Assembly (NCBI GenBank): GCA_965215265.1
Contig: OZ244048.1
Location: forward strand, 2,944,001 to 3,008,000
DNA length: 64,000 bases
DNA from: Candidatus Poribacteria bacterium
GTDB taxonomy: Bacteria; Poribacteria; WGA-4E; WGA-3G
Direction of reading: 5' to 3'
Each line of letters begins with the position of its first letter. Position 1 is the first letter of the stretch. The position numbers and the translations under genes are program-made. The notes under the pieces were generated by a model. That model made no database searches. It worked only from the letters and a program-made list of their open reading frames with translations, and was not told where the DNA came from. This document shows, one piece after another, positions 2,113 to 13,128 of this stretch.

Positions 2113-2258
2113 TTAGGTTGTGTTCAGCCAAACCTCTAAAAAAAAGAGTGACTTTTTTTACAATCTGTGGTATACTTCTTTATGAGCCAAGTGGAAAACT
2201 GGAAAAAACAAGCAGCGTGCACCCATGCAGGCAAACAAAAATGACTGGAGGAAGTCAA

Positions 2259-3473
2259 ATGAAAAAGAGGTTAACGGTATTCGGTTTATTAACTCTTCTG
2301 GTAACGAGCGTTTTTCTCCCAGTTGCGTCGGGTCAGTTTCTGGCAGAGACGCAGTGGGGTTTACCCGATGGGGCGATTGCGCGCCTCGGCAGAGGCTCGG
2401 TAGGTGAGGTAGCATATTCGCCGGATGGTTCTCAGCTTGCAGTGGTAAGTAGCATCGGTATTTGGCTGTATGATGCGGAGACGGGTGAGCCGCTCGACCT
2501 ACTCACGGGGCATACGTCTTTTATCTTGAGCATAGCGTTCAGTCCAGATGGTAGCACGCTCGCTAGTGGGAGTATGCGAACCATTCGGCTCTGGGATGTG
2601 AACACGGGCGATACACTCAAAACTCTCACGGGGCATACGGCGCCTGTCTTGAGCGTAGCGTTCAGCGGAGATGGCAGAACACTCGCAACTGGGAGTAGGG
2701 ACAGAACCATTCGTCTGTGGGATGTGAACACAGGCGAGACTCTCAAAACTCTCACCGGGCATACGGATTGGGTCAGGAGCATAGCGTTCAGTCCAGATGG
2801 TAGCACCCTCGCTAGTGGGAGTTGGGACGGCGCCGTGCTGCTCTGGGACCTCCGTCCTCCTACTGCCCCTGCTGCAGCGGAGGACATCAACGCGGATGGG
2901 CTTGTCAACATTCAAGACCTCGTTTTAGTCGCCGCAGCGTTTGGGGAGACAGGCGAGAGCCGTGCAGATGTCAACGGCGATGAACTCGTCAATATCCTGG
3001 ATCTCACGCTCGTGGCGGCGGCATTCGGGAAAGCACCGGCAGCAGGACAGCAGGGCCAGGCGCTGATGCGAGCAGAAGTGCAGCAATGGCTCACTGAAGC
3101 ACGGCAGCTGAATCTCACAGACGCGGGTGTCCAGCGTGGGCTTGTGGTCCTCGAGCAGCTCCTCGCCGCACTCACACCGCAAGAGAACGCCCTTTTGCCA
3201 AACTACCCCAACCCGTTCAACCCCGAGACGTGGATGCCGTATCAATTGGAAAAACCGGCAGCCGTGTCGGTGCATATCTATTCCGCACACGGCATGCTCG
3301 TTCGGACACTGTCGCTTGGGCATCAGCAGGCGGGGTTTTACCGGACTCGGGCGCGTGCCGCGTATTGGGATGGCAGAAACGCCGTCGGGGAGCCGGTGGC
3401 GAGCGGTGTCTACTTCTACACGCTCACCGCTGGGGACTTCGCCGCTACACGCAAAATGTTGATTCGCAAGTAA
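2259..3473 (+). CDS. secreted WD40-repeat protein with dockerin-like (EF-hand) module and C-terminal FlgD-Ig/T9SS-type-A-like domain
   Basis: GGAGG RBS then MKKRL signal peptide; GH...WD repeats; DINADGLVNIQDLV and DVNGDELVNILDL; LLPNYPNPFNPETW...ASGVYFY...TRKMLIRK. Confidence 0.9.
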   Translation: MKKRLTVFGLLTLLVTSVFLPVASGQFLAETQWGLPDGAIARLGRGSVGEVAYSPDGSQLAVVSSIGIWLYDAETGEPLDLLTGHTSFILSIAFSPDGSTLASGSMRTIRLWDVNTGDTLKTLTGHTAPVLSVAFSGDGRTLATGSRDRTIRLWDVNTGETLKTLTGHTDWVRSIAFSPDGSTLASGSWDGAVLLWDLRPPTAPAAAEDINADGLVNIQDLVLVAAAFGETGESRADVNGDELVNILDLTLVAAAFGKAPAAGQQGQALMRAEVQQWLTEARQLNLTDAGVQRGLVVLEQLLAALTPQENALLPNYPNPFNPETWMPYQLEKPAAVSVHIYSAHGMLVRTLSLGHQQAGFYRTRARAAYWDGRNAVGEPVASGVYFYTLTAGDFAATRKMLIRK

Positions 3474-4009: not shown

Positions 4010-4150
4010 CCGTCAACGTCTATGATTTTGGAAGTGCGTGTGTAAATTTCGTCAGAGACTTCTTAGGTATAGTATAACCTAATGTTTTCTAATCGTATGG
4101 AATTTTGTTGCCCTACTCGTTTTGGGCGATGCTAAGGGCTTTTACATCAA
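4010..4150 (+). repeat. PR1 repeat copy (degenerate, long form)
   Basis: CGTCAACGTCTATG...GTGTGTAAATTTCGTCAGAGAC.TCTTAGG...GGGCGATGCTAAGGGCTTTTACATC resembles the reverse complement of the 154-bp unit. Confidence 0.6.
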
Positions 4151-5079
4151 TTCGGTGTGTTGAAGATGGCGCGGTTGACTCGCATGATTATTTTTCTCCA
4201 GGGTTGTTTCGGCTGTTGATTTTTATCGGTTTCCGACATCTCCAGGGTTGTGGTTTGTGGAAACCAGATCTCGGGTTCAAACTGTTCAAGTTGGTATGTA
4301 TACCGGGTTAATGACCTTCGTTCTTCCGTGTGCCTTTCTTGATGAAGACCGCGTGTCATTAAGATGCTCTGCATTTCTTTCCGATATACCAATATGCGCG
4401 TCGGAAGAAAACTCTTGCATGGATCTCGGTACATTTCAATAGTCCGGGTATTGTCTGAATCGGTGCGGCACAATGTGAGGGCATAGACGGTTTGCTCTTT
4501 TTCGTTGATCTTTTCAACTGTAATGGGTGTAAAGATACGAAAATTCGTGTAGAGGTTTATCCAGTGCATCGGATTGAAAAGGTCATCTAATCGATGCGAA
4601 GGCATTGTCGGTTGCTCTTTCCACTCGGTGCCGATTTTCTCCCAGACATGCACTGTTTTCCCTGTTCTCAGATAGTGGTGATGGGTTTCTTTCCAGTTTG
4701 AAAGCGGAGGCCCGTAGAGTTCCATCTTATAACGGGCTTTCACGTCGTAAAATTGGTGTTCTGCGTCAAATTGATAGGTAATCTCCCACCGCCCTTTTTC
4801 TTCATAAGTGTCTTTACGTCGGGCTGCAGTCGGTATCCGCCTGGGTCCACTGAGGATGAGCGTGAAGTCAATCACGCCGCTTTTGAGTTTTGCCTTGTAA
4901 ATTTGAATACCCACTTTTACCGCTTCGAGCAATTGCGTTGCTTCTGCGGAGAGTTCAACGTTTTCAGGTGTTTTCGGTGTCTGTGGCACTGCAGGTGTGT
5001 CAAACAATAAAGACAGACAGAAGCAGGAAACGGAAAAGAAAAGTGAGAAACGACATTCCAAAATCTGTGTAATCCGCAT
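4147..5079 (-). CDS. secreted hypothetical protein, possible LolA-like beta fold; paralog of 5091-6251
   Basis: N-terminal hydrophobic signal; DPCKSFLPTR and PEIWFPQ match NPQKSYRPER and PDLWFPQ of the neighbour. Confidence 0.7.
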   Translation of the reverse strand: MRITQILECRFSLFFSVSCFCLSLLFDTPAVPQTPKTPENVELSAEATQLLEAVKVGIQIYKAKLKSGVIDFTLILSGPRRIPTAARRKDTYEEKGRWEITYQFDAEHQFYDVKARYKMELYGPPLSNWKETHHHYLRTGKTVHVWEKIGTEWKEQPTMPSHRLDDLFNPMHWINLYTNFRIFTPITVEKINEKEQTVYALTLCRTDSDNTRTIEMYRDPCKSFLPTRILVYRKEMQSILMTRGLHQERHTEERRSLTRYTYQLEQFEPEIWFPQTTTLEMSETDKNQQPKQPWRKIIMRVNRAIFNTPN

Positions 5080-5090
5080 CGGATGTCCTC

Positions 5091-6251
5091 CTACTCAACT
5101 TTAAAGGATTCATGGGTTCGCGTGTCAAAAATAGTAGCCCCGGAGGGTGGTTCTAGGGCAAAACGGCGAGCCGAAATCGGTTCGTTAATCCGCACGTTTG
5201 TAAGGTGCATCGTAGTTGTCTCCAGAGAGGTTTCAGCACCGGTTTCAAGATTCACAAGCGATGTCACGGATTGGGCGGATTGTGGGAACCAGAGGTCAGG
5301 GGCGACTTCCACGAAATCAAAGTCTTTTATCACTTGGTGCCGCTGTTCGGGGCCTTCAGTAGAAAACATAAAGCGTTCAGGACGGTAACTTTTCTGTGGG
5401 TTAAGCCAGAGTTCAACTTCTACGGCTTCTTGCACAGTCCCTTTGATGTGATAAACGGAGGCGTTGTCCCAATTGACAGACTGTATCTGTTCGACATTGA
5501 TAGCATCGATAAGTTCTGCAAAGGGACTACCATCGCTGAGGTTCCATCCCCAGAAACGTGGGTCGTATGCTGTGTTATACCTGATGTCGCTGCCGCGTGT
5601 TAAGACTGTGCCGTTCGGCGTTTCGCGAAGTTCTTCAAAAGTCTCGCCATCATAAGCGAAGTGTTTTGTGTCAAAAACGTGTAGACTTCCGTGCTGCTCA
5701 TTATACTCAGTCGCGTTTTGTGTCACGCTGCCGGTGACTCGGTTTCCAGAAAACGCAAAGGTTCCTTCCCAAGTGCCCTTGGGGGCCTGTAACATGCTGT
5801 CTTCTAGAATAGGGTGACTTGATATCTCCATGAAAAAGTCTACGCTCCCGCTTTCGACGAGGCTATCGTAATAGGAGACACCTTCGCGGACGAGTTGAAA
5901 CATTTCGCCTTGCGTGAGTTCAGTGGAACTGTCTGCGGTTTCATCCTCGGTGAGAATACTGTTTCCCGAGAGGTTTTGTTCTTCCAATGTTGAGAGGAAG
6001 TCGATTGCTTCTGTCACAACGGCAAAATCTGGTGTCGTGTTCTCTATTTGTGTTGTTTCTTCAGCTGTAGTGGCGAGTTCCGTCACGGCTGGCACATCAG
6101 ATAAATGGGCAGATGCAGTCGTTTTTATCACTGTAACAGTTGAGTGAACATCCCGATAAGTTGTATACCAATAGATGATTAAGGCACTCATAAGAACAAT
6201 TGCAATGATTGCTAGTGCCCATGCTTTGGTGTGTCGCGTTTTTTCTCTCAT
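5091..6251 (-). CDS. membrane-anchored hypothetical protein, possible LolA-like beta fold
   Basis: N-terminal TM helix; AYDGE, DPRFWG, WFPQ, VRINEPI...F..P.GATIFD; AAGGA RBS at the ATG 6251 start. Confidence 0.75.
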   Translation of the reverse strand: MREKTRHTKAWALAIIAIVLMSALIIYWYTTYRDVHSTVTVIKTTASAHLSDVPAVTELATTAEETTQIENTTPDFAVVTEAIDFLSTLEEQNLSGNSILTEDETADSSTELTQGEMFQLVREGVSYYDSLVESGSVDFFMEISSHPILEDSMLQAPKGTWEGTFAFSGNRVTGSVTQNATEYNEQHGSLHVFDTKHFAYDGETFEELRETPNGTVLTRGSDIRYNTAYDPRFWGWNLSDGSPFAELIDAINVEQIQSVNWDNASVYHIKGTVQEAVEVELWLNPQKSYRPERFMFSTEGPEQRHQVIKDFDFVEVAPDLWFPQSAQSVTSLVNLETGAETSLETTTMHLTNVRINEPISARRFALEPPSGATIFDTRTHESFKVE

Positions 6252-6390
6252 GGTGAGGTGATCCTTTTGTTTGGGGTGACGCGTATTAAAACGCGTCACC
6301 GTTGGTTTTTCCGGGCGTTCCGGAAAGAATCATGAGGCAACCTGCCCCTCGTCGTTTATGAGTATAGCGAGGCCGTTGTCTTCATGACGA

Positions 6391-6822
6391 CTAACATGAG
6401 CTCTGCGTCTCTATCGTATAAACCCCATTTGTCCATATTCTAGTGATATATGAAGTTCGGAACCACGATATACAGTAGGGACCCACATAATCATACTGCT
6501 CTGCACATTGTTGGTTGTTTTCAGTAGTTGTAATGCAATCTGTGGATGAACTGTTTGTTCCACAAACAGCGTGGCCCCCACCCGATCGTTTGGAAGAGAT
6601 CCATCCGGAGCCGCTCCAAGACGTTTCGCAGTCTGAGGAGGCACAGACACCAGATGTGGGATAAACCTGCGCGTAGGTTTCGCACGGCCCCGCTCCCCGT
6701 GTTGCAAGCATTTCTGCTTGACTGAGGGTTTGGAAGGGAGCGTCGGGGTGAAAATTCACCTCCAATAGAGTGAGTCCTGCAATGAGCATGAGGAAGAGTA
6801 TCGGAAAAACTGTTGATTTCAT
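6391..6822 (-). CDS. Cys-rich precursor with signal peptide and double-glycine-type leader
   Basis: ACAGGAG RBS; hydrophobic N-terminus; LSQAEMLATRGA motif; 8 Cys in a Ser/Thr/Gly-rich core ending in Cys. Confidence 0.75.
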   Translation of the reverse strand: MKSTVFPILFLMLIAGLTLLEVNFHPDAPFQTLSQAEMLATRGAGPCETYAQVYPTSGVCASSDCETSWSGSGWISSKRSGGGHAVCGTNSSSTDCITTTENNQQCAEQYDYVGPYCISWFRTSYITRIWTNGVYTIETQSSC

Positions 6823-6907
6823 TCTGAAATTCTCCTGTAAGTCTGCCGAGCCGTCCGGCCTCGGCGGTTTGTGTCGTATTCCCACACGCTGTTGTGTGGG
6901 AATCTTT

Positions 6908-8344
6908 CTATTTTGTAACTAAAGCAAAGACTTGTATTTTGATAATATGCATTTTCGGATGATTTGTGTGTATCCTAACCTCACCTTTTAGAATGCCAGT
7001 CGGTAGCAGCGGTGGCAACGTCAAACGCAGCTCGTAGCGATTTTCGTCTGTGAATGCGTCCACCTGAACTGTGCCGACATCGGTTTCTACCTTCTCAATC
7101 TGGATGTCGGTGTCGCTGTAGTTGTGAAGCACCACCACTTTTGTATTTCCTTCAGTGGCTTTGATGCGTCCGAAAAAAAAGCGTTTGGGAGTCAGTGTGT
7201 ATCGCGGGTTCACTTTCCCAGAAATCGGTAAGGTGATGCTCTTTGTTTTCCCATCGCTTTCTTCGTAGTGGACGGTGAGCGTTTCATCAACTCTTTTATC
7301 TCTCGGCATCTGCTCTGTTTCAAAATAGAGTTCAATGTTGGCGTGCCGCCAGGGCGAAATGACAGCGTCACTTCGAAGAACAGGTTGTATCCAGGCTTGT
7401 GAGGGCTCGATTTTGAGGATTTTCGCAGCAGTCTCATTCAGGTTTTGGATCGCTACGGTTCTTTTGATCTGAGATGTGCTGGTACCTTGAATAGAGAGGG
7501 TTTCAGGGATGCAGACGAGGGAAAACTCACGGATGAGACCAAGAGAAATAAAAGTATGTGGGCGTTTCGGGGCCTCTGTTTCAAGATGAATAGTGGTAAA
7601 GAGCGAACGGTTAGCGGCATTCGCATCCCATGTTACATCTAAAAAGGTGGAGCCCCTTGCGCGGATGACGGCACTCTGTTTTTTGGTAATGGTGCAGTTG
7701 CAATTCGCGGCAATGTTCAGGATTTTTAGTGGGGTAATACTGACATTTCGGAGCTGTACAGGTATACCGTATTCGCCAGTTTTTCCCTTTCCAAAGTCAA
7801 ACAACGTAGGGGATGCGACTAAAGCCGGCTGCCAATAAGACTGCTGTTTTTGTGAAAGGACAAGGATTTTGCCCGTCCAAAGTTCCAAAAAGCGATCGCA
7901 TGAGATAACGGTGGCGGCGTCACGTAAAGTATTCCGAGGTGTGTCAAACATTCGAACCCACTTGTCAGTTGCATGTTCAACCACAATGAAGTGCCCAACC
8001 GTGCCATCAGCTGCAGATGGATTTTCATCCGCAAACGTAGTCTTGAGATGTGCGATGACGGGTGTGTTCAACATTTGTAGCTCGGCGTAGGTGAGTTTGG
8101 CACCTTGGAGTTCAAGACCTATCGCGTTGCCACAGTCGATCAATTCCACAAAACTCGCGATGCGACCGCCTTCCTGTTTCGCTTTTACGGCAGTGTTGGC
8201 TGTGTCCAGCGATACCTCAAGACCTAAGAGCGTAGCAAGGTGATAGAGACTCGCGGCACCGCAAGCGTGTTTGGCATCGGTTTGCGCGTAGGCGACCGGA
8301 AGTATCAACAATATGATGAGAAGTAGGGTGGCTAAAAATTTCAT
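6908..8344 (-). CDS. secreted C39-family cysteine peptidase with DUF1573/Ig-like domains
   Basis: Signal peptide ending AYA; ACG, GHFIVV, MFD triad pattern; LRN....LKI.NI.ANCNCT DUF1573-like motif. Confidence 0.85.
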   Translation of the reverse strand: MKFLATLLLIILLILPVAYAQTDAKHACGAASLYHLATLLGLEVSLDTANTAVKAKQEGGRIASFVELIDCGNAIGLELQGAKLTYAELQMLNTPVIAHLKTTFADENPSAADGTVGHFIVVEHATDKWVRMFDTPRNTLRDAATVISCDRFLELWTGKILVLSQKQQSYWQPALVASPTLFDFGKGKTGEYGIPVQLRNVSITPLKILNIAANCNCTITKKQSAVIRARGSTFLDVTWDANAANRSLFTTIHLETEAPKRPHTFISLGLIREFSLVCIPETLSIQGTSTSQIKRTVAIQNLNETAAKILKIEPSQAWIQPVLRSDAVISPWRHANIELYFETEQMPRDKRVDETLTVHYEESDGKTKSITLPISGKVNPRYTLTPKRFFFGRIKATEGNTKVVVLHNYSDTDIQIEKVETDVGTVQVDAFTDENRYELRLTLPPLLPTGILKGEVRIHTNHPKMHIIKIQVFALVTK

Positions 8345-8371: not shown

Positions 8372-8968
8372 TTATAAATCGTGCTTAATATCGGTTTCCG
8401 GTTTTCCAAGGTTTCCAGCCCCAAAGGGCGAGCGAAGCCTGAGATATTGTTGTTTACCTTCTTTATTGGTGTAAGTGATCTGGTGCACTTGAATCTGCGT
8501 GAGTGTCAGCTCTTCTAAAAAGCGGTCACCGTTCTTGACAATGAGCCTGCGATATTTCGGGTGGTTGCTCTGTAAAATCGCGGTGTTCTTCTCGGTATCA
8601 GCGTATATCACTGTCCCAATGAGTTCGAGTTTGAGTGTCCATTCGTATTTGCGATATCCGAGCGGACGGAACAGATTATTGTCTATAATCACCTGACAGT
8701 GGGGCGGCAGTTTCACAAAAGAACGCTGGGGCATCTGTCGCTGGATGTGCAGTTTGGGTGCACGTTTGCCTTGCATTTGATAGAGGTGCTGTCGCAACTG
8801 CTCTCGGAGTGCGGAATCCGTCTGGAGATCCGCGAGAGTCGCCCCTTCTTTTTTGAGTAACGTTTGTATTAATGCAGGCGGTGTATCCTCATTATTACCA
8901 AAGGGAGTAGGCACTATAAGGAGCGATAAGATTCCTAAAAAACTGAAAAGTCTAATGCTTCGTTTCAT
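8372..8968 (-). CDS. GspC/type II secretion protein C-like periplasmic-domain protein
   Basis: N-terminal TM; IIDNNLFRPLG..LELIGTVI..TAIL..VKNGD..I....ITY pattern. Confidence 0.6.
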   Translation of the reverse strand: MKRSIRLFSFLGILSLLIVPTPFGNNEDTPPALIQTLLKKEGATLADLQTDSALREQLRQHLYQMQGKRAPKLHIQRQMPQRSFVKLPPHCQVIIDNNLFRPLGYRKYEWTLKLELIGTVIYADTEKNTAILQSNHPKYRRLIVKNGDRFLEELTLTQIQVHQITYTNKEGKQQYLRLRSPFGAGNLGKPETDIKHDL

Positions 8969-10127
8969 GAGTCTTCTCTATCGTATGCACGATCTTCAGA
9001 AAATAGACATCTCCGTCAAAATGCGGGCTATTTTCTGCGGTGTGGCATGTCAGGCAATTCATCTGTGGCACCTGCCCATACCCACCCAGGCTTGGGTTCT
9101 TCACGTGATTGCCACCGACACCATGACAGGTTTCGCAGCCGACATCCATAAGCATCGGTGTCTGCAACTCGCTGAGAAACCCCGTCTGAAACCCAAACCC
9201 AACGGTATGACACGGCAAACACTCCGGGTCTTTTTCCCGTCCCTTTTCAACAAGTGTGTGATACGCATGTGCATGCTTTGTTTTTTTCCAACTGACGTAT
9301 TCCGAGGCGTGACACGTTTGACAACTTGCGTTCCCAGCATACATTCCCCCGGTTGAAAGCGGTTCTTGTTCCACATCTACTACCAGATTTTCAGCGGAGA
9401 GCATCTGTTGATACAACGCGAGCAGCTCCATCATCCGAGGCGAGTCAGGGATGCGCTCTGAAAGTGTCTGTAACTGAAAACGAGAATCTCCCTGGTTTCC
9501 ATTGTTATCCCAATAAAGGTCAAGCCGTCCCAAGGCTTTTCCCTTCGTGCCGGGGTTGAGTAACAAGGTATTCCCAATAGAGATGGGTTCCATCAGTGCT
9601 TCTGAGTGTTCATCTCCAATGAGTATCACGTCAATTTTCGGAAAAGCTGTTGCCAATGCCTTCGCTTCGTTGACAGGCGCGTGCGCCAGCAAGACGATGA
9701 AATCACATTCCGCAGAAAGTTGGAGAATGAGTTCTCTCAGCACGTCCACTGGGGGTTTCAACGTTAAATCCGCACCTGTGTTTTCAGCATAGACATCAAA
9801 TCGTTGGGAGGTAACCCCGACAATGCCCACCTTTCCTTGACGTTTATTCAGCACCACGTTATGAATCACATAAGGATGAAAAACACGCACGTCGCCTTCA
9901 AACAGATTCGCGGACAGAAAAGGAATATCAGAGGTTTCTGAGAAATACTTTAACGTCTCTATTCCTAAAAGTAAGTCACGCGGTCCAACATTAAAGGCAA
10001 CATATTCCATCTCTTTGAGTGCCGTAAATCCGATTTCTGCTTTCATCTCATTCGCCCTTTCTTGATATGAACCAAAAAGGATTGTTAGGGCTTCAGGCAC
10101 AGGTTGACTCGACTCGCAATGCCTCAA
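8952..10127 (-). CDS. truncated 5'-nucleotidase-like domain fused to tetraheme cytochrome c (c554-like)
   Basis: PFLSAN, VGIVGV, VLLAH, IDVIL.G; four CxxCH motifs (CQTCH, CLPCH, CETCH, CLTCH); start uncertain. Confidence 0.8.
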   Translation of the reverse strand: MRHCESSQPVPEALTILFGSYQERANEMKAEIGFTALKEMEYVAFNVGPRDLLLGIETLKYFSETSDIPFLSANLFEGDVRVFHPYVIHNVVLNKRQGKVGIVGVTSQRFDVYAENTGADLTLKPPVDVLRELILQLSAECDFIVLLAHAPVNEAKALATAFPKIDVILIGDEHSEALMEPISIGNTLLLNPGTKGKALGRLDLYWDNNGNQGDSRFQLQTLSERIPDSPRMMELLALYQQMLSAENLVVDVEQEPLSTGGMYAGNASCQTCHASEYVSWKKTKHAHAYHTLVEKGREKDPECLPCHTVGFGFQTGFLSELQTPMLMDVGCETCHGVGGNHVKNPSLGGYGQVPQMNCLTCHTAENSPHFDGDVYFLKIVHTIEKTHETKH

Positions 10128-11379
10128 TGGGTGACATCCGCATCGCTTTTATAGCAGGATACAGCCCGAACCCGATACCGAGTAACACTGAAAAGCAAAC
10201 TGAAATCAGCACCCATTGAGGCGAGAGAACTGCCGGCCATTGAGGGACGATTTTCACAATCTGCACGGCGAGATGGGCCATTCCTGCCCCGGCGAAGATG
10301 CCGAGGCCAATGCCGAATAACCCACCGATACCACACAGGATCACCGATTCACTCAAAAACTGCAACAGAATATCCGAATGTTTCGCACCGAGTGCCTTTC
10401 GCAATCCGATTTCGCGCGTGCGTTCTCCGACAGCCACCAACATCATGTTCATAATGCCGATACCCCCGACGAGGAGGGAAAACCCGGCGATGCTGCCCAA
10501 TCCGATTTTAAGAATCGTGCTGATTTTCGACAGTCGTTTTACCCCGCCTCGCACGTCAAAATGACCGAAGAACGTTTCGTTTCGGTGTCGTTTTTGGACG
10601 ACGGCGTAGACCTCTTCAATGGCCCTGGGCATGTCGGCTACGGTGTGTGCTTGCACCGCAATCTGCGGAATCCGATCGTTGCCAATGAAACGTTGTTGCA
10701 CCGTGGTCATCGGGAGAAAGGCCAGATCATCGAAACTAAAACCGAATTTCAAGCTGCGTCCGCGCGGCATGAGCGTTCCGATAACCGTGAACCGTTCGCT
10801 TTGATGTGCGTATTGCCCGCTGCCACGAAAAATTTTAATCTCTTTTCCAAGTGGCGATGCTGCGCCGAACAGTTCGGTAGCGACATTTGCACCGAGCACG
10901 ACGACTTTCGTGGCGTTTTCAACGTCTTCATCCGAAATAAAACGTCCGGTTTGCAAGTCCCATTCCATCGCTGCAGTGTAGGCAGCATCCACGCCGTTAT
11001 AGCCGGCACGGATGTTCGAGCCATCTGGGGCTCGCATCAGTACGCGCGTCCATTGCGGTATCCGCGGGCTAACCACTTTCACGGACGGGCAGTCTGCCGC
11101 AATCGCCAATACATCGCCATAGTTAAAATGTTCCCGGCTCCGGAACGGGACACGGCGGCCGTTCTCCCGTTTGGCATTGAGACGTAAAAGGGTAAAGGTG
11201 TTCATCCCGCCGATTTTTTCAAGATCCTGGATAATAATCTGTTTCGCACCATCGCCGATAGCAATCATCGCCTGTACCGCCGCGATGCCGATGAGAATGC
11301 CTAGCATCGTGAGCAACGAGCGAAGTTTGTGCTGAAGCAGCGAGCGGATTCCGATGGCAATGCCTTCCGATAGGCGCAT
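10093..11379 (-). CDS. MacB-like ABC transporter permease
   Basis: RSLLTMLGILIGI, VGGIGIMNMMLVAV.ERTREIGLRKALGA, GLYPA..A..MSPIEALR. Confidence 0.93.
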   Translation of the reverse strand: MRLSEGIAIGIRSLLQHKLRSLLTMLGILIGIAAVQAMIAIGDGAKQIIIQDLEKIGGMNTFTLLRLNAKRENGRRVPFRSREHFNYGDVLAIAADCPSVKVVSPRIPQWTRVLMRAPDGSNIRAGYNGVDAAYTAAMEWDLQTGRFISDEDVENATKVVVLGANVATELFGAASPLGKEIKIFRGSGQYAHQSERFTVIGTLMPRGRSLKFGFSFDDLAFLPMTTVQQRFIGNDRIPQIAVQAHTVADMPRAIEEVYAVVQKRHRNETFFGHFDVRGGVKRLSKISTILKIGLGSIAGFSLLVGGIGIMNMMLVAVGERTREIGLRKALGAKHSDILLQFLSESVILCGIGGLFGIGLGIFAGAGMAHLAVQIVKIVPQWPAVLSPQWVLISVCFSVLLGIGFGLYPAIKAMRMSPIEALRVESTCA

Positions 11380-13128
11380 TTATGCCTCCTGCTCCTGTCT
11401 GGGCTGCAGTCCGGCGAACTGTTTCTGAAATAGGTTATGGTAGACACCGCTACGTTGAATGAGTTCGGCGTGTGTGCCGGTTTCAACGAGTCTGCCATCA
11501 CTGAGTACAAGGATTTTATCGGCGTTCAAGATGGTGGAGAGCCGATGTGCGATGACGAAGCTGGTACGCCCTTTCATCAGCCGCGTGAGGGCTTCTTGCA
11601 CGAGTGCCTCAGAGTCGGCATCGAGAGACGAGGTTGCCTCATCGAGAATGAGGATTTTCGGATTTCTGAGGATCACCCGTGCAAGCGCAACCCGCTGCTG
11701 CTCGCCGCCAGATAACCGAACCCCTCGCTCACCTACCTTGCTTTCGTACTGGTCGGGGAAATTCATAATGAAGTCGTGCGCGTTTGCCAACTTTGCGGCG
11801 GAGACAACTTCTTCATGGGAGACAGATTCCGGATCTTCTGCACCAAGGCGAATGTTATAGGCGATGCTCTCGGCAAACAGATACGGGGCTTGGAAAACAA
11901 TGCCGATATGGGCTCGCAACGATTGAATTTGTATTTTATGGATAGGGAGGGTATCGATAAAGATGCTGCCCTGTTGCGGTTCGTAGAAGCGTGGAATGAG
12001 TTTCATTAATGTGCTTTTCCCCGCACCGCTCGGGCCAACTATCGCCAATGTGTTGCCGGGGGCCGCTTCAAAACTAACATCCTTCAAAACAGGTAGGGCT
12101 TCGCTATATCCGAAAGAGACATTCGAGAATTGGACACGCCCCACAATCTGTTGAATGGGTACCCCTTCTTGAGCTTCTTCCTCGTGTTCATCGAAAAATG
12201 CGAAAATTCTCCGCGCCGCAACCAGAATGGATGGAATTCTCAGATGAAGGCTAACCAGCCCCTCGAGGGGACGATACACGCAACTAAACCACATGGTTGT
12301 CGCAAAGAGTTCGCCCACAGTAATAGTCCCACTTAGGACATACCTTCCACCGAATAAAAATACTAAAGCTGTGGCTGTCCAGACCAGGACAATAGTGATG
12401 CTCCCTGCCTGCCGGATTGTTTGCTGTTTGACATGGATGGATACAAGCTGTTTGAGTGCCTGCCGGAGGTTCACCAAATCGTAGAGCTCTTTTCCGAGTC
12501 CTTTAAGTTCGCAAGATCCGGCAATGCTTTCCTGCAAGCTGCCGGATAGCGAAGCCGTTTGTTCTTGAACGGCCGCTCCCATTCGCCGGAGCGGCTTGTC
12601 TAAAAATATGGGGATCAGCACATTCACCATGACAAGAAGTAAGGAGAAGACACATAACTGCCAACTAACGAACGTAATAACGATGAGTGTCACACCCAGC
12701 ATGATAGTGTTTACGAGATAGTCGCCGGCAAATACGCGGAACCCCTGGACCGCTTTTGGCGTATCCGAGGTGAATATCGCCATGACTTGCCCAGTTTGGT
12801 GTGTGTCGTAAAATCGAAACCCTAATTTGCGCAGATGGTGGTAGGCTTCGAGTTGGATATCTTTGGACCCATTTTCGGAGATCTTTGTCGGAAAGTGAGC
12901 AAGTCCTAGCGCGAATAAGTACATAACTACTGATGTCAAGATATAGAGTCCACATGCAGGCAGCAGCAGGGCAACATTTTTAGCAATAAATACATCGTCA
13001 ATTAACAGTTTCTTAATCCAGGGCAGAATCAGAAAGCCGCCGGAGTAGCCGAGGGAGGAAATGATAAAGAGCAATTGAAGATGCCAATACGGTCTCAGAT
13101 ATGACAAAAGTCGCAGAACGTCTTTCAT
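11380..13128 (-). CDS. ABC exporter, fused TMD-NBD (MsbA-like), no N-terminal peptidase domain
   Basis: GPSGAGKST, LSGGEQQR, ILILDEATSSLD, IAHRLST. Confidence 0.93.
   Translation of the reverse strand: MKDVLRLLSYLRPYWHLQLLFIISSLGYSGGFLILPWIKKLLIDDVFIAKNVALLLPACGLYILTSVVMYLFALGLAHFPTKISENGSKDIQLEAYHHLRKLGFRFYDTHQTGQVMAIFTSDTPKAVQGFRVFAGDYLVNTIMLGVTLIVITFVSWQLCVFSLLLVMVNVLIPIFLDKPLRRMGAAVQEQTASLSGSLQESIAGSCELKGLGKELYDLVNLRQALKQLVSIHVKQQTIRQAGSITIVLVWTATALVFLFGGRYVLSGTITVGELFATTMWFSCVYRPLEGLVSLHLRIPSILVAARRIFAFFDEHEEEAQEGVPIQQIVGRVQFSNVSFGYSEALPVLKDVSFEAAPGNTLAIVGPSGAGKSTLMKLIPRFYEPQQGSIFIDTLPIHKIQIQSLRAHIGIVFQAPYLFAESIAYNIRLGAEDPESVSHEEVVSAAKLANAHDFIMNFPDQYESKVGERGVRLSGGEQQRVALARVILRNPKILILDEATSSLDADSEALVQEALTRLMKGRTSFVIAHRLSTILNADKILVLSDGRLVETGTHAELIQRSGVYHNLFQKQFAGLQPRQEQEA

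What the first reader, a model, noticed from the sequence alone, without database searches (positions are those of the whole stretch)
6391..6822. Three-part precursor: signal peptide, double-glycine-type leader, 8-Cys core
Seen: MKSTVFPILFLMLIAGLTLL..., then QTLSQAEMLATRGA matching the LS..E(L/M)....G(G/A) leader consensus. It is followed by a ~99-aa Ser/Thr/Gly-rich core starting GPC, with 8 Cys and a C-terminal Cys. Inference: a four-disulfide mini-protein (toxin, signal or host-interaction factor) released by two-step processing.
Basis: partly seen in the sequence, partly recalled or inferred. Interest (0 to 1): 0.75.

Follow-up and report, generated by a model that had tools for sequence, protein, structure and literature searches.

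The report
Exported Cys-rich protein with C39-type leader
A sponge-symbiont (Poribacteria) gene encodes a small exported eight-cysteine protein that carries a bacteriocin-style "double-glycine" tag behind its export signal and sits next to an exported protease of the family that cuts such tags, which points to a processing step outside the cytoplasm that has hardly been described.

Summary
Window 6391-6822 (minus strand) encodes a 143-aa protein with three parts: an N-terminal hydrophobic export segment, LSQAEMLATRGA, and a 99-aa core with 8 Cys.

It belongs to a small family: 28 representatives in 1.84 billion proteins, and 9 of 176 Poribacteria genomes. In the family the first 45 residues are far better conserved (0.49-0.58 mean identity) than the core (0.26). 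L33, E37, T41 and G43 are invariant, with the spacing of a double-glycine leader.

In 8 of 9 loci the gene lies directly downstream of a Sec-exported C39-peptidase/DUF1573 protein (6908-8344). The catalytic Cys is intact in 7 of 7 loci that have a leader-bearing neighbour. The one genome whose precursor has lost the leader also has Cys->Ser in the peptidase.

The core folds with high confidence (pLDDT 95.6) into a long-stranded beta sheet. No solved structure matches it (best Z 4.5).

Best reading, confidence 0.55: Sec export, then leader removal outside the cytoplasm by the neighbouring C39 domain, releasing a four-disulfide protein. No cleavage is shown, and the function of the core is unknown.

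The closest precedents are GG-leader/PCAT systems and periplasmic FapD. I rate it a new variant of a known kind.

The parts
6391..6822 (-). Precursor gene, 143 aa plus stop (P0001)
   Evidence: Homologues.
6832..6836 (-). Ribosome-binding site AGGAG, 9 nt before the ATG
   Evidence: Read. The same element lies before the start codon in 5 other loci.
6757..6822 (-). Residues 1-22: MK plus a hydrophobic helix. Sec signal or signal-anchor. G16 is invariant.
   Evidence: helix 5-22. (G16 in 29 of 29). (sub-threshold Conotoxin-prepro matches to residues 1-57/70 in 4 homologues).
6691..6735 (-). Residues 30-44: double-glycine-type leader FQTLSQAEMLATRGA. Proposed cut after G43-A44.
   Evidence: conservation. 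(helix 35-41). (PF16934 leader positions 4-23 match this stretch in 5 of 27 homologues scanned, below the cut-off).
6394..6690 (-). Residues 45-143: 99-aa core with 8 conserved Cys, all-beta
   Evidence: pLDDT 95.6. (no structural match).
6845..6903 (-). Two RNA stem-loops in the spacer between the peptidase gene and the precursor gene
   Evidence: z = -5.3 here; two hairpins in all 6 loci folded.
6908..8344 (-). Exported C39 peptidase / DUF1573 protein, 478 aa (P0002). Signal peptide ...VAYA|QT. C39 domain at residues 20-167 with Cys28, His118, Asp134. DUF1573 at residues 182-264 with an NCNCT motif.
8372..8968 (-). Conserved 198-aa exported protein of unknown family (p4). Its gene overlaps the peptidase gene by 4 bases in 5 other loci (L020, L021, L024, L025, L026).
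8952..10127 (-). UshA-like phosphoesterase plus cytochrome c554 gene. Here it lacks about the first 91-98 codons found in its orthologues.
5091..6299 (-). Conserved membrane-anchored 402-aa protein (p3). Its C-terminal domain is possibly LolA-like.
   Evidence: (lolA E 0.0064).
4147..5079 (-). Conserved 310-aa exported paralogue of the p3 domain (p310)

Best explanation
P0001 is a precursor that is processed outside the cytoplasm. Its N-terminal hydrophobic segment takes it through Sec, so that the leader and core lie in the periplasm. There the 15-residue leader (F30...G43-A44) is recognised by the C39 cysteine-peptidase domain of the neighbouring, likewise Sec-exported, protein P0002. That domain cuts after G43-A44 and frees a 99-residue core, which folds into a long-stranded beta sheet held by four disulfides. 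The core is an accessory, fast-evolving cargo of a conserved envelope gene module of Poribacteria, so it most probably acts outside the cell, in competition, signalling or host contact. What is shown: the gene, the family, the conservation pattern, the synteny, the peptidase's residues and the fold prediction. What is inferred: Sec export, the cut and its position, the disulfides and the destination.
For: (1) Leader. In alignment A2 (29 rows), L33, E37, T41 and G43 are each 28 of 28. Position 38 is M/L/I in 28 of 28, position 30 is F/I/Y/L in 28 of 28, and position 44 is mostly Ala (15). Counted back from A44 these fall at -12, -8, -7, -4, -2 and -15, which is the spacing of double-glycine leaders; that consensus is recalled, not taken from a call. 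Mean pairwise identity over 25 full-length rows is 0.49 (residues 1-22), 0.54 (23-45) and 0.26 (core), or 0.19 for the core without Cys.

(2) Independent models see a GG-type leader at this spot. PF16934 (type-2 lantibiotic precursors) positions 4-23 match residues 29/30-45/48 (57-73 in N-terminally extended P0021) in 5 of 27 homologues scanned, E 9.4e-5 to 0.039, all below the 27.6-bit cut-off. TIGR03893 matches P0011 residues 30-56, E 0.0023, also below its cut-off.

(3) Peptidase. P0002 matches Peptidase_C39 at 47.3 bits against a cut-off of 22. The A3 profile aligns Cys28, His118 and Asp134 with the CGAACL, HFVV and DP motifs of PCAT1 (4ry2), E 6.6e-4. P0002 has its own signal peptide.

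(4) Synteny. In 8 of 9 genomes with a family member, the gene lies directly downstream of the P0002 orthologue.

(5) Co-variation. The catalytic Cys is intact in 7 of 7 loci with a leader-bearing neighbour (G000, G163, G108, G149, G103, G153, G152). In G026 the precursor lacks the 20 residues that hold the leader, and the peptidase there has Ser for the Cys.

(6) Domain boundary. AlphaFold2 gives helix 5-22, a low-confidence linker, helix 35-41, and a core that begins at residues 46-47 with pLDDT about 97.

(7) Complex prediction of the C39 domain (residues 21-175) with precursor residues 24-62 gave weak support only. The score was 0.40 against 0.01 for the best of 3 controls. That mark was reached by 116 of 157 solved complexes and by 2 of 215 mismatched pairs. 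At 0.60 or under, only 18 of the 157 reached it, as did both mismatches that passed. The runs agree in at least 55% of contacts and the partner's pLDDT is at least 50. My own alignments were used. The pass may reflect likeness to solved C39-leader complexes.

(8) Precedent. FapD of Pseudomonas is a Sec-exported C39 peptidase that is active in the periplasm (PMC5557850, passages read).
Against: No cleavage product, transcript or protein was seen, and no RNA run holds the locus.

Position -4 is Thr rather than the usual hydrophobic residue.

Position -1 is Leu, Val, Phe or Thr in 10 of 28 homologues, which is unusual for C39 sites.

The peptidase is not dedicated to this cargo. P0002 homologues occur in 75 of 176 Poribacteria genomes, against 9 of 176 for the precursor. 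G161 and G033 keep a Cys-intact orthologue without any precursor.

A large sister clade has Ser for the Cys (4 of 4 examined). The domain may therefore bind rather than cut in much of the family.

G124 has a leader-bearing precursor with no adjacent peptidase. It has only a differently built C39-DUF1573 fusion elsewhere in the genome.

The co-variation rests on one leaderless case, and the genomes are related, so they are not independent.

The complex prediction is weak, by the tool's own verdict.
Confidence: 0.55

Rival explanations
1. P0001 is an ordinary Sec-secreted, disulfide-rich protein. Signal peptidase alone matures it. The conserved stretch 23-45 is a pro-region or docking element, for example for binding by the C39-like or DUF1573 domain or for folding, and is not a cleavage site.
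For: At position 24, 26 of 28 homologues have Ser or Ala, after V/M at position 22. That is a possible signal-peptidase site. Many C39-like domains in this protein family lack the catalytic Cys (clade B 4 of 4, plus the G165 fusion), so binding without cutting is common among them. The peptidase gene occurs far more widely than the precursor.
Against: The stretch has the exact spacing of a double-glycine leader, with an invariant Gly at -2. Lantibiotic-leader models pick it up. Leader-bearing precursors sit beside Cys-intact peptidases in 7 of 7 loci, and the leaderless one sits beside a Cys->Ser peptidase. The window's own protein has Phe at the putative signal-peptidase -1 position.
Confidence: 0.2
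2. P0001 is the subunit of a surface fibre, pilus-like filament or beta-pore. The leader is removed by the periplasmic C39 peptidase, as in the best explanation. The purpose of that step is to license assembly, as proposed for Fap-type systems, and not to release a soluble effector.
For: The core model has very long strands, 19 and 17 residues. The weak structural neighbours are fibres, pili and pore hairpins: 9xfv pilus-like filament at Z 3.6 (rmsd 8.5 A, 86 aligned) and Z 3.8 (rmsd 8.9 A, 84 aligned), phage tail fibres at Z 4.0-4.2, and gasdermin/RCD-1 pores at Z 3.2-3.5. The core is 39% Ser, Thr and Gly. Earlier notes of this scan describe Sec-signal-plus-GG-leader subunits beside periplasmic C39 peptidases in Fap-like and pilus-like loci. 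Those notes are leads only.
Against: All structural matches are below Z 5 and tied with unrelated folds. No outer-membrane channel or usher was recognised in the conserved cluster. There is one copy per genome and no minor-subunit paralogues. Four disulfides and a compact, confident monomer model fit a soluble protein equally well.
Confidence: 0.15
3. P0001 is a classical cytoplasmic double-glycine bacteriocin, exported and cut by the ABC transporter encoded at 11380-13128 together with the MacB-type permease at 10093-11379.
For: An ABC exporter (582 aa) and a MacB/FtsX permease lie on the same strand 3.3-6.3 kb upstream.
Against: The ABC protein has no C39 domain; its transmembrane region starts at residue 21. 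Neither gene is found in the 8 other precursor loci. The precursor has a hydrophobic N-terminal segment before the leader. The only nearby C39 domain carries its own signal peptide.
Confidence: 0.03

Closest known systems
Double-glycine (GG) leader peptides and the C39 peptidase domains of PCAT/AMS ABC transporters (PCAT1, ComA)
   Same: The leader has conserved residues at -15, -12, -8, -7, -4 and -2/-1 in the same spacing (the consensus itself is recalled). A C39 domain whose Cys, His and Asp align with PCAT1 is encoded next door. The leader is conserved and the cargo varies.
   Different: The leader follows a Sec-type hydrophobic segment and is not at the N-terminus. The peptidase is a stand-alone exported protein fused to DUF1573/Ig-like domains, not the cytoplasmic N-terminal domain of an ABC transporter. 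No ABC transporter is conserved in the locus. Position -4 is Thr. The cargo is a folded 99-aa, 8-Cys protein.
FapD, the periplasmic C39 peptidase of the Pseudomonas Fap functional-amyloid system (PMC5557850, passages read)
   Same: Both are Sec-exported C39 peptidases acting outside the cytoplasm on a product of the same operon.
   Different: According to that paper FapD's substrate and site are unknown, and Fap proteins lack a canonical C39 motif. Here a single neighbour carries a near-canonical leader. No FapF-type channel or amyloid-repeat protein was recognised here.
Type-2 lantibiotic precursors (Pfam PF16934 Mersacidin; NCBIfam TIGR03893)
   Same: The leader parts of these models match residues 29-48 of 5 of 27 homologues, and residues 30-56 of one homologue.
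   Different: All matches are below the curated cut-offs, and the window's own protein gives no match. There is no LanM-type or other modification enzyme in the cluster. The core is 99 aa with a disulfide scaffold.
Animal prepropeptides of Cys-rich toxins (conotoxin precursors, PF02950): signal, pro-region, Cys-rich mature part
   Same: The three-part layout is the same. Four of 27 homologues give sub-threshold matches to the Conotoxin precursor model from residue 1.
   Different: This is an analogy of layout only. The matches are below the cut-off (best E 0.0058, 18.0 bits against 25.1). The core is unrelated, and the processing enzyme differs.

Membership tests
Double-glycine leader peptide (C39 substrate) | Leader consensus with conserved hydrophobic residues at -15, -12, -7 and -4, Glu at -8, and Gly-Gly/Ala/Ser at -2/-1 | tested here: met
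   F30, L33, E37, M38, T41, G43 and A44 are conserved across 28 homologues. Thr stands at -4, and -1 is not small in 10 of 28. The consensus itself is recalled.
Double-glycine leader peptide (C39 substrate) | The leader is the extreme N-terminus of a cytoplasmic precursor, with no Sec signal | tested here: not met
   Residues 1-22 are MK plus a hydrophobic helix that comes before the leader.
Double-glycine leader peptide (C39 substrate) | A cognate C39 peptidase is encoded in the same locus | tested here: met
   P0002 lies directly upstream in 8 of 9 loci.
Double-glycine leader peptide (C39 substrate) | Cleavage after the GG/GA pair | not testable with these tools
   This needs mass spectrometry or N-terminal sequencing. 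Only a weak complex prediction is available.
Double-glycine leader peptide (C39 substrate) | Export by a peptidase-containing ABC transporter | tested here: not met
   The nearby ABC protein lacks a C39 domain and is absent from the 8 other loci.
Peptidase C39 (for P0002) | Match to PF03412 above the gathering score | tested here: met
   47.3 bits against 22, residues 20-167.
Peptidase C39 (for P0002) | Catalytic Cys, His and Asp | tested here: met
   Cys28, His118 and Asp134 align with the PCAT1 motifs. They are conserved in clade A.
Periplasmic stand-alone C39 peptidase (FapD type) | Sec signal peptide before the C39 domain | tested here: met
   MKFLATLLLIILLILPVAYA|QT is followed by the catalytic Cys 8 residues later. 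No signal-peptide predictor was available.
Periplasmic stand-alone C39 peptidase (FapD type) | Fap-type partners: an outer-membrane FapF channel and amyloid-repeat subunits | tested here: inconclusive
   Neither Pfam nor NCBIfam recognised any in the cluster. The neighbours p3, p310 and p4 are of unknown family.
Type-2 lantibiotic precursor (PF16934) | Score above the gathering cut-off, and a LanM-type enzyme nearby | tested here: not met
   Best score is 22.5 bits against 27.6, in a homologue and not in P0001. No such enzyme is in the cluster.
Cystine-knot growth-factor fold (PDGF/VEGF/IL-17) | Structural superposition of the core | tested here: inconclusive
   Foldseek E values are 2.0-5.3 and TM 0.13-0.32.

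The most novel reading that the evidence does not exclude
The locus is a maturation machine outside the cytoplasm that couples two steps in one exported protein. The C39 domain removes the leader. The DUF1573 domain then carries out oxidative folding through its C-x-C site, the position where paralogues carry selenocysteine. The product is a hypervariable, disulfide-locked beta protein of a fold not yet seen. The sponge symbiont would release it as a ligand or pore directed at the host or at competing symbionts. The recurring weak likeness to cystine-knot cytokines and to pore hairpins would then be meaningful.
Probability: 0.12. Interest if true: 0.85.

Novelty: new variant of a known kind. 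Interest (0 to 1): 0.6.

Why it matters
C39 peptidases are textbook cytoplasmic leader-cutters of bacteriocin and pheromone exporters. The one studied periplasmic member, FapD, still has no defined substrate or site (PMC5557850). Here there is a single cargo with a near-canonical leader, next to an exported C39 domain. There is also a natural case in which the leader and the catalytic Cys are lost together. Together these give a simple system for defining what a periplasmic C39 peptidase recognises. The cargo is also a new, confidently folding 8-Cys protein family confined, as far as searched, to sponge-associated Poribacteria. It is the fastest-evolving gene of its locus, which makes it a candidate for symbiont-host or symbiont-symbiont interaction.

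Tried and rejected
Contig scans. Scans of metagenome contigs with P0001 and with A1 and of genome contigs with P0001 found no relative. A further genome-contig scan with A2 was not run, because the alignment has no stretch conserved enough.

Weak hits in relatives. Matches of residues 5-89 to 740-990-aa proteins in relatives are signal peptide plus low-complexity regions of cohesin/spondin-type surface proteins. They are not homologues. P0031 (705 aa, repeats) was dropped as spurious.

Expression. No RNA holder is listed. Laying contigs of 4 runs showed only near-identical copies of the same strain and a single change in the precursor, at 6747.

Fold of the core. Foldseek against PDB gave no match at E <= 0.001 for the whole model or for the core. 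VIA-align wide gave best Z 3.6 for the whole model and 4.5 for the core, the latter a 45-residue beta-meander. The ESM Atlas gave no usable hit. Sequence and profile searches against PDB gave nothing for A2, P0002, P0003, P0004 or A6.

Cystatin idea. Fetuin and cystatin rows appear at E 0.6-2.4 with TM 0.1-0.2. I did not pursue this.

ABC transporter link. Rejected; see the rivals.

Other substrates. A search of the genome for further proteins with this leader found none (the first attempt had a spacing error in my pattern).

Literature. "C39"+"DUF1573" gave 0 papers. "Poribacteria"+"peptidase C39" gave 0. "DUF1573" gave 4 papers, none on function beyond a selenoprotein table. For "FapD"+"C39"+"cleavage" (4 papers) and "Poribacteria"+"cysteine-rich"+"secreted" (4 papers) I saw only the listings.

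Full report
THE GENE. Window 6391-6822, minus strand, encodes a 143-aa protein, P0001. The longest ORF begins at GTG 6885. Three things favour ATG 6822 as the start. AGGAG lies at 6832-6836, 9 nt upstream. All homologues begin at the matching Met-Lys. The other loci also have AGGAG or AAGGAG just before their start codons. The protein has three parts. Residues 1-22 are MK plus a hydrophobic run. Residues 23-44 contain TLSQAEMLATRGA. The remaining 99 residues form a core with Cys at 47, 60, 65, 87, 96, 106, 117 and 143, of which 39 residues are Ser, Thr or Gly. Neither Pfam nor NCBIfam recognises it.

THE FAMILY. A word-indexed search found 2 close relatives, at 77% and 74% identity. A full phmmer pass over 1.84 billion representatives found 28 proteins at E <= 0.001, of which 16 were at <= 1e-10. 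One of them, P0031, is a 705-aa repeat protein and was dropped. I aligned 29 sequences as A2: P0001, P0005 and 27 of the 28 hits, leaving out P0006, a near-duplicate of P0005. G16 is invariant in 29 of 29. L33, E37, T41 and G43 are each 28 of 28. All eight Cys are conserved in 90% or more of rows. Seven Cys are invariant in a second alignment of 32 rows. Mean pairwise identity over the 25 full-length rows (4 fragments left out) is 0.49 for residues 1-22, 0.54 for 23-45, 0.58 for 30-45 and 0.26 for the core, or 0.19 for the core without Cys. So this is a conserved N-terminal module on a fast-changing disulfide scaffold. Many members end in a Gly-rich tail followed by T/S-S-S after the last Cys. 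The window's protein ends at that Cys.

THE ORGANISM AND DISTRIBUTION. Source names on homologues of the neighbouring protein read Candidatus Poribacteria. A profile of A2 found the family in 9 of 176 genomes of the phylum. All 9 are in one family-level group, across three genera, with one copy each. The other genome of the window's own genus has none. Contig scans outside these genomes gave nothing.

THE NEIGHBOURHOOD. P0002 lies immediately upstream on the same strand, at 6908-8344. It has a signal peptide (...VAYA|QT), a Peptidase_C39 domain (47.3 bits against a cut-off of 22) and a DUF1573/Ig-like domain. A profile of 28 orthologues aligns its Cys28, His118 and Asp134 with the catalytic motifs of the PCAT1 peptidase domain (4ry2, E 6.6e-4). 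BLAST of the window's proteins against 8 fetched loci shows a conserved gene order: UshA-like/cytochrome c554, then p4 (198 aa), then C39-DUF1573, then the precursor, then p3 (about 400 aa, membrane-anchored), then p310. The precursor lies directly downstream of the peptidase gene in 8 of 9 loci. The exception is G124. The ABC exporter and the MacB-type permease of the window (10093-13128) are absent from all 8 other precursor loci. The ABC protein also has no C39 domain. They are therefore not part of the system.

THE PRECURSOR IS AN ACCESSORY CASSETTE. P0002 homologues occur in 75 of 176 genomes. G161 has an orthologue at 69% identity. There the flanks align with the window, but the roughly 550 bp holding the precursor are missing cleanly. 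Between genomes the core is the most diverged part of the locus. It is 27-42% identical, against 53-79% for the peptidase. For G108 against G103, for example, the peptidase is 79% identical, p4 73%, the leader 45% and the core 34%.

CO-VARIATION OF LEADER AND CATALYTIC CYS. In the 7 genomes where a leader-bearing precursor follows the peptidase gene, the catalytic Cys and His are present in 7 of 7. For G152 the N-terminus lies on another contig. In G026 the precursor (L027:10119-10475) keeps the hydrophobic segment and the Cys scaffold but lacks the 20 residues that contain L33-E37. The adjacent peptidase there reads Ser in place of the Cys. Against a strict pairing, G161 and G033 have Cys-intact peptidases and no precursor. 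G124 has a leader-bearing precursor without an adjacent peptidase. Its only C39 gene encodes a different fusion, with a p310-like domain, a C39 domain with Cys, and a DUF1573 domain with an in-frame TGA. A sister clade at about 50% identity has Ser for the Cys (4 of 4 examined) and no precursor. It is followed by p3-type proteins with an added N-terminal domain. These genomes are related, so the counts are not independent.

DOES THE MOTIF LOOK LIKE A C39 LEADER TO INDEPENDENT MODELS? Counted back from A44, the conserved residues fall at -15 (F/I/Y/L, 28 of 28), -12 (L), -8 (E), -7 (M/L/I), -4 (T) and -2 (G). That is the spacing I recall for double-glycine leaders, except that Thr stands at -4. 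Position -1 is A (15), L (5), T (3), S (2), V (1), F (1) or G (1). PF16934, a model of type-2 lantibiotic precursors whose leaders are of this type, matches exactly this stretch in 5 of 27 homologues scanned (E 9.4e-5 to 0.039). TIGR03893 matches one homologue (E 0.0023). All of these are below the curated cut-offs, and none is in P0001 itself. In the whole genome only P0001 combines the motif with an upstream hydrophobic run in a short ORF.

STRUCTURE. AlphaFold2 with A2 gave mean pLDDT 85.8. It shows helix 5-22, a poorly defined linker, helix 35-41, and from residues 46-47 a beta domain at about 97. The core alone gave pLDDT 95.6 and pTM 0.79, with six strands, two of them 19 and 17 residues long. 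Foldseek found nothing at E <= 0.001. VIA-align against 48,161 representative chains gave best Z 3.6 for the whole model and 4.5 for the core. The top rows are a propeller-blade meander, phage tail fibres, a pilus-like filament (9xfv, Z 3.8, rmsd 8.9 A, 84 aligned) and pore hairpins. The tool notes that a best Z of 7-8 is typical even for models without clear matches. The fold therefore has no recognisable solved relative by these searches, though that does not prove it is new. Weak Foldseek rows for PDGF, VEGF and IL-17 (E 2-5) are a lead only.

COMPLEX PREDICTION. I ran the C39 domain (residues 21-175, alignment A3) with precursor residues 24-62 (alignment A2). The score was 0.40 against 0.01 for the best of 3 controls, and the tool's verdict was "weak support". 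The mark was reached by 116 of 157 solved complexes and by 2 of 215 mismatches. At 0.60 or under, only 18 of the 157 reached it, as did both mismatches that passed. The runs agree in at least 55% of contacts, and the partner's pLDDT is at least 50. The pass may reflect solved C39-leader complexes.

MECHANISM PROPOSED. Step 1: Sec export by the N-terminal segment (inferred). In 26 of 28 homologues a small residue at position 24, after V/M at position 22, could allow a signal-peptidase cut. That would leave a leader of about 20 residues, the usual length. The window's protein has Phe there, so it may stay anchored. Step 2: the exported C39 domain of P0002 binds the leader helix and cuts after G43-A44 (inferred from the motif, synteny, co-variation and the domain boundary). 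Step 3: the core forms four disulfides (inferred from 8 conserved Cys). The DUF1573 domain carries N-C-N-C-T at the place where the sister clade has N-T-U-H-T with an in-frame TGA. A review table lists DUF1573 (UGC motif) and UshA-like (CxU motif) proteins among prokaryotic selenoprotein families (PMC9312934, table passages read). A redox role of this domain in folding the cargo is a speculation that fits, but I did not test it. Step 4: release. The destination and function are unknown. Fast divergence, patchy presence and cassette-like gain or loss suggest a role in conflict or communication.

COMPARISON WITH WHAT IS KNOWN. The closest mechanisms are two. One is GG-leader cleavage by the C39 domains of PCAT transporters, which has the same motif and protease family but a different compartment and architecture. 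The other is FapD, a Sec-exported C39 peptidase shown to act in the periplasm. Its substrate was unknown, and the authors noted that Fap proteins lack canonical C39 motifs (PMC5557850, passages read). Earlier AI notes of this scan report Sec-signal-plus-GG-type leaders beside periplasmic C39 peptidases in Fap-like and pilus-like loci of several phyla. One of those notes was later marked as partly fallen. They are leads, not evidence. They do lower the surprise of the arrangement as such, and they raise the fibre-subunit rival. I found no paper describing this family, the C39-DUF1573 architecture or such a cargo (listings only, apart from the two papers named).

VERDICT. I rate it a new variant of a known kind, with interest 0.6.

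Noticed in passing
window 8952-10127 (-): The UshA-like/cytochrome c554 gene lacks about the first 91-98 codons present in its 458-470-aa orthologues. The missing part includes the membrane segment and the P-C-G-C motif. The gene abuts the 3' end of the MacB-type permease gene. The ABC and permease genes seem to have been placed into the operon here, truncating it.
   Followed up: partly
L030-L033 (G172, G154, G147, G160) and about 25 further genomes: A sister clade of the C39-DUF1573 protein has one in-frame TGA inside the DUF1573 domain (N-T-U-H-T, where the window has N-C-N-C-T). It also has Ser in place of the C39 catalytic Cys. It is probably a selenoprotein with a non-catalytic C39-like domain.
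   Followed up: partly
L034 (G165), L029 (G033), L036 (G124): The p3/p310-type domain occurs fused to an inactive C39-like domain (L034), to an ECF sigma factor plus a membrane segment (L029), and to C39 plus DUF1573 with TGA (L036). This points to a functional tie between this domain and the C39 module, and possibly to envelope signalling.
   Followed up: no
window 6845-6903 (-) and the matching spacers of L020, L021, L022, L024, L025: The spacer between the peptidase gene and the precursor gene folds into two stem-loops in all 6 loci (z -2.4 to -5.3), although the sequences differ. This could be a transcript-processing or attenuation element that sets the precursor-to-enzyme ratio.
   Followed up: partly
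window 6275-6300 and L028 about 10960-10990: A perfect 10-bp inverted repeat (GGTGACGCGT...ACGCGTCACC) lies just upstream of the p3 start. It is conserved between G000 and G161, with a different loop.
   Followed up: no
window 2118-3473 (+); L002, L004: Surface proteins (WD40 plus dockerin-like, cohesin/spondin-like) end in the same C-terminal sorting-type domain (...NFPNPFNPETW.PYQL...). This is a common secretion tag in this genome.
   Followed up: no
alignment A2: Many family members carry a tail after the last Cys that ends in Gly-rich sequence plus T/S-S-S (for example ...GGGTSS). The window's protein has no such tail. Its meaning is unknown.
   Followed up: no
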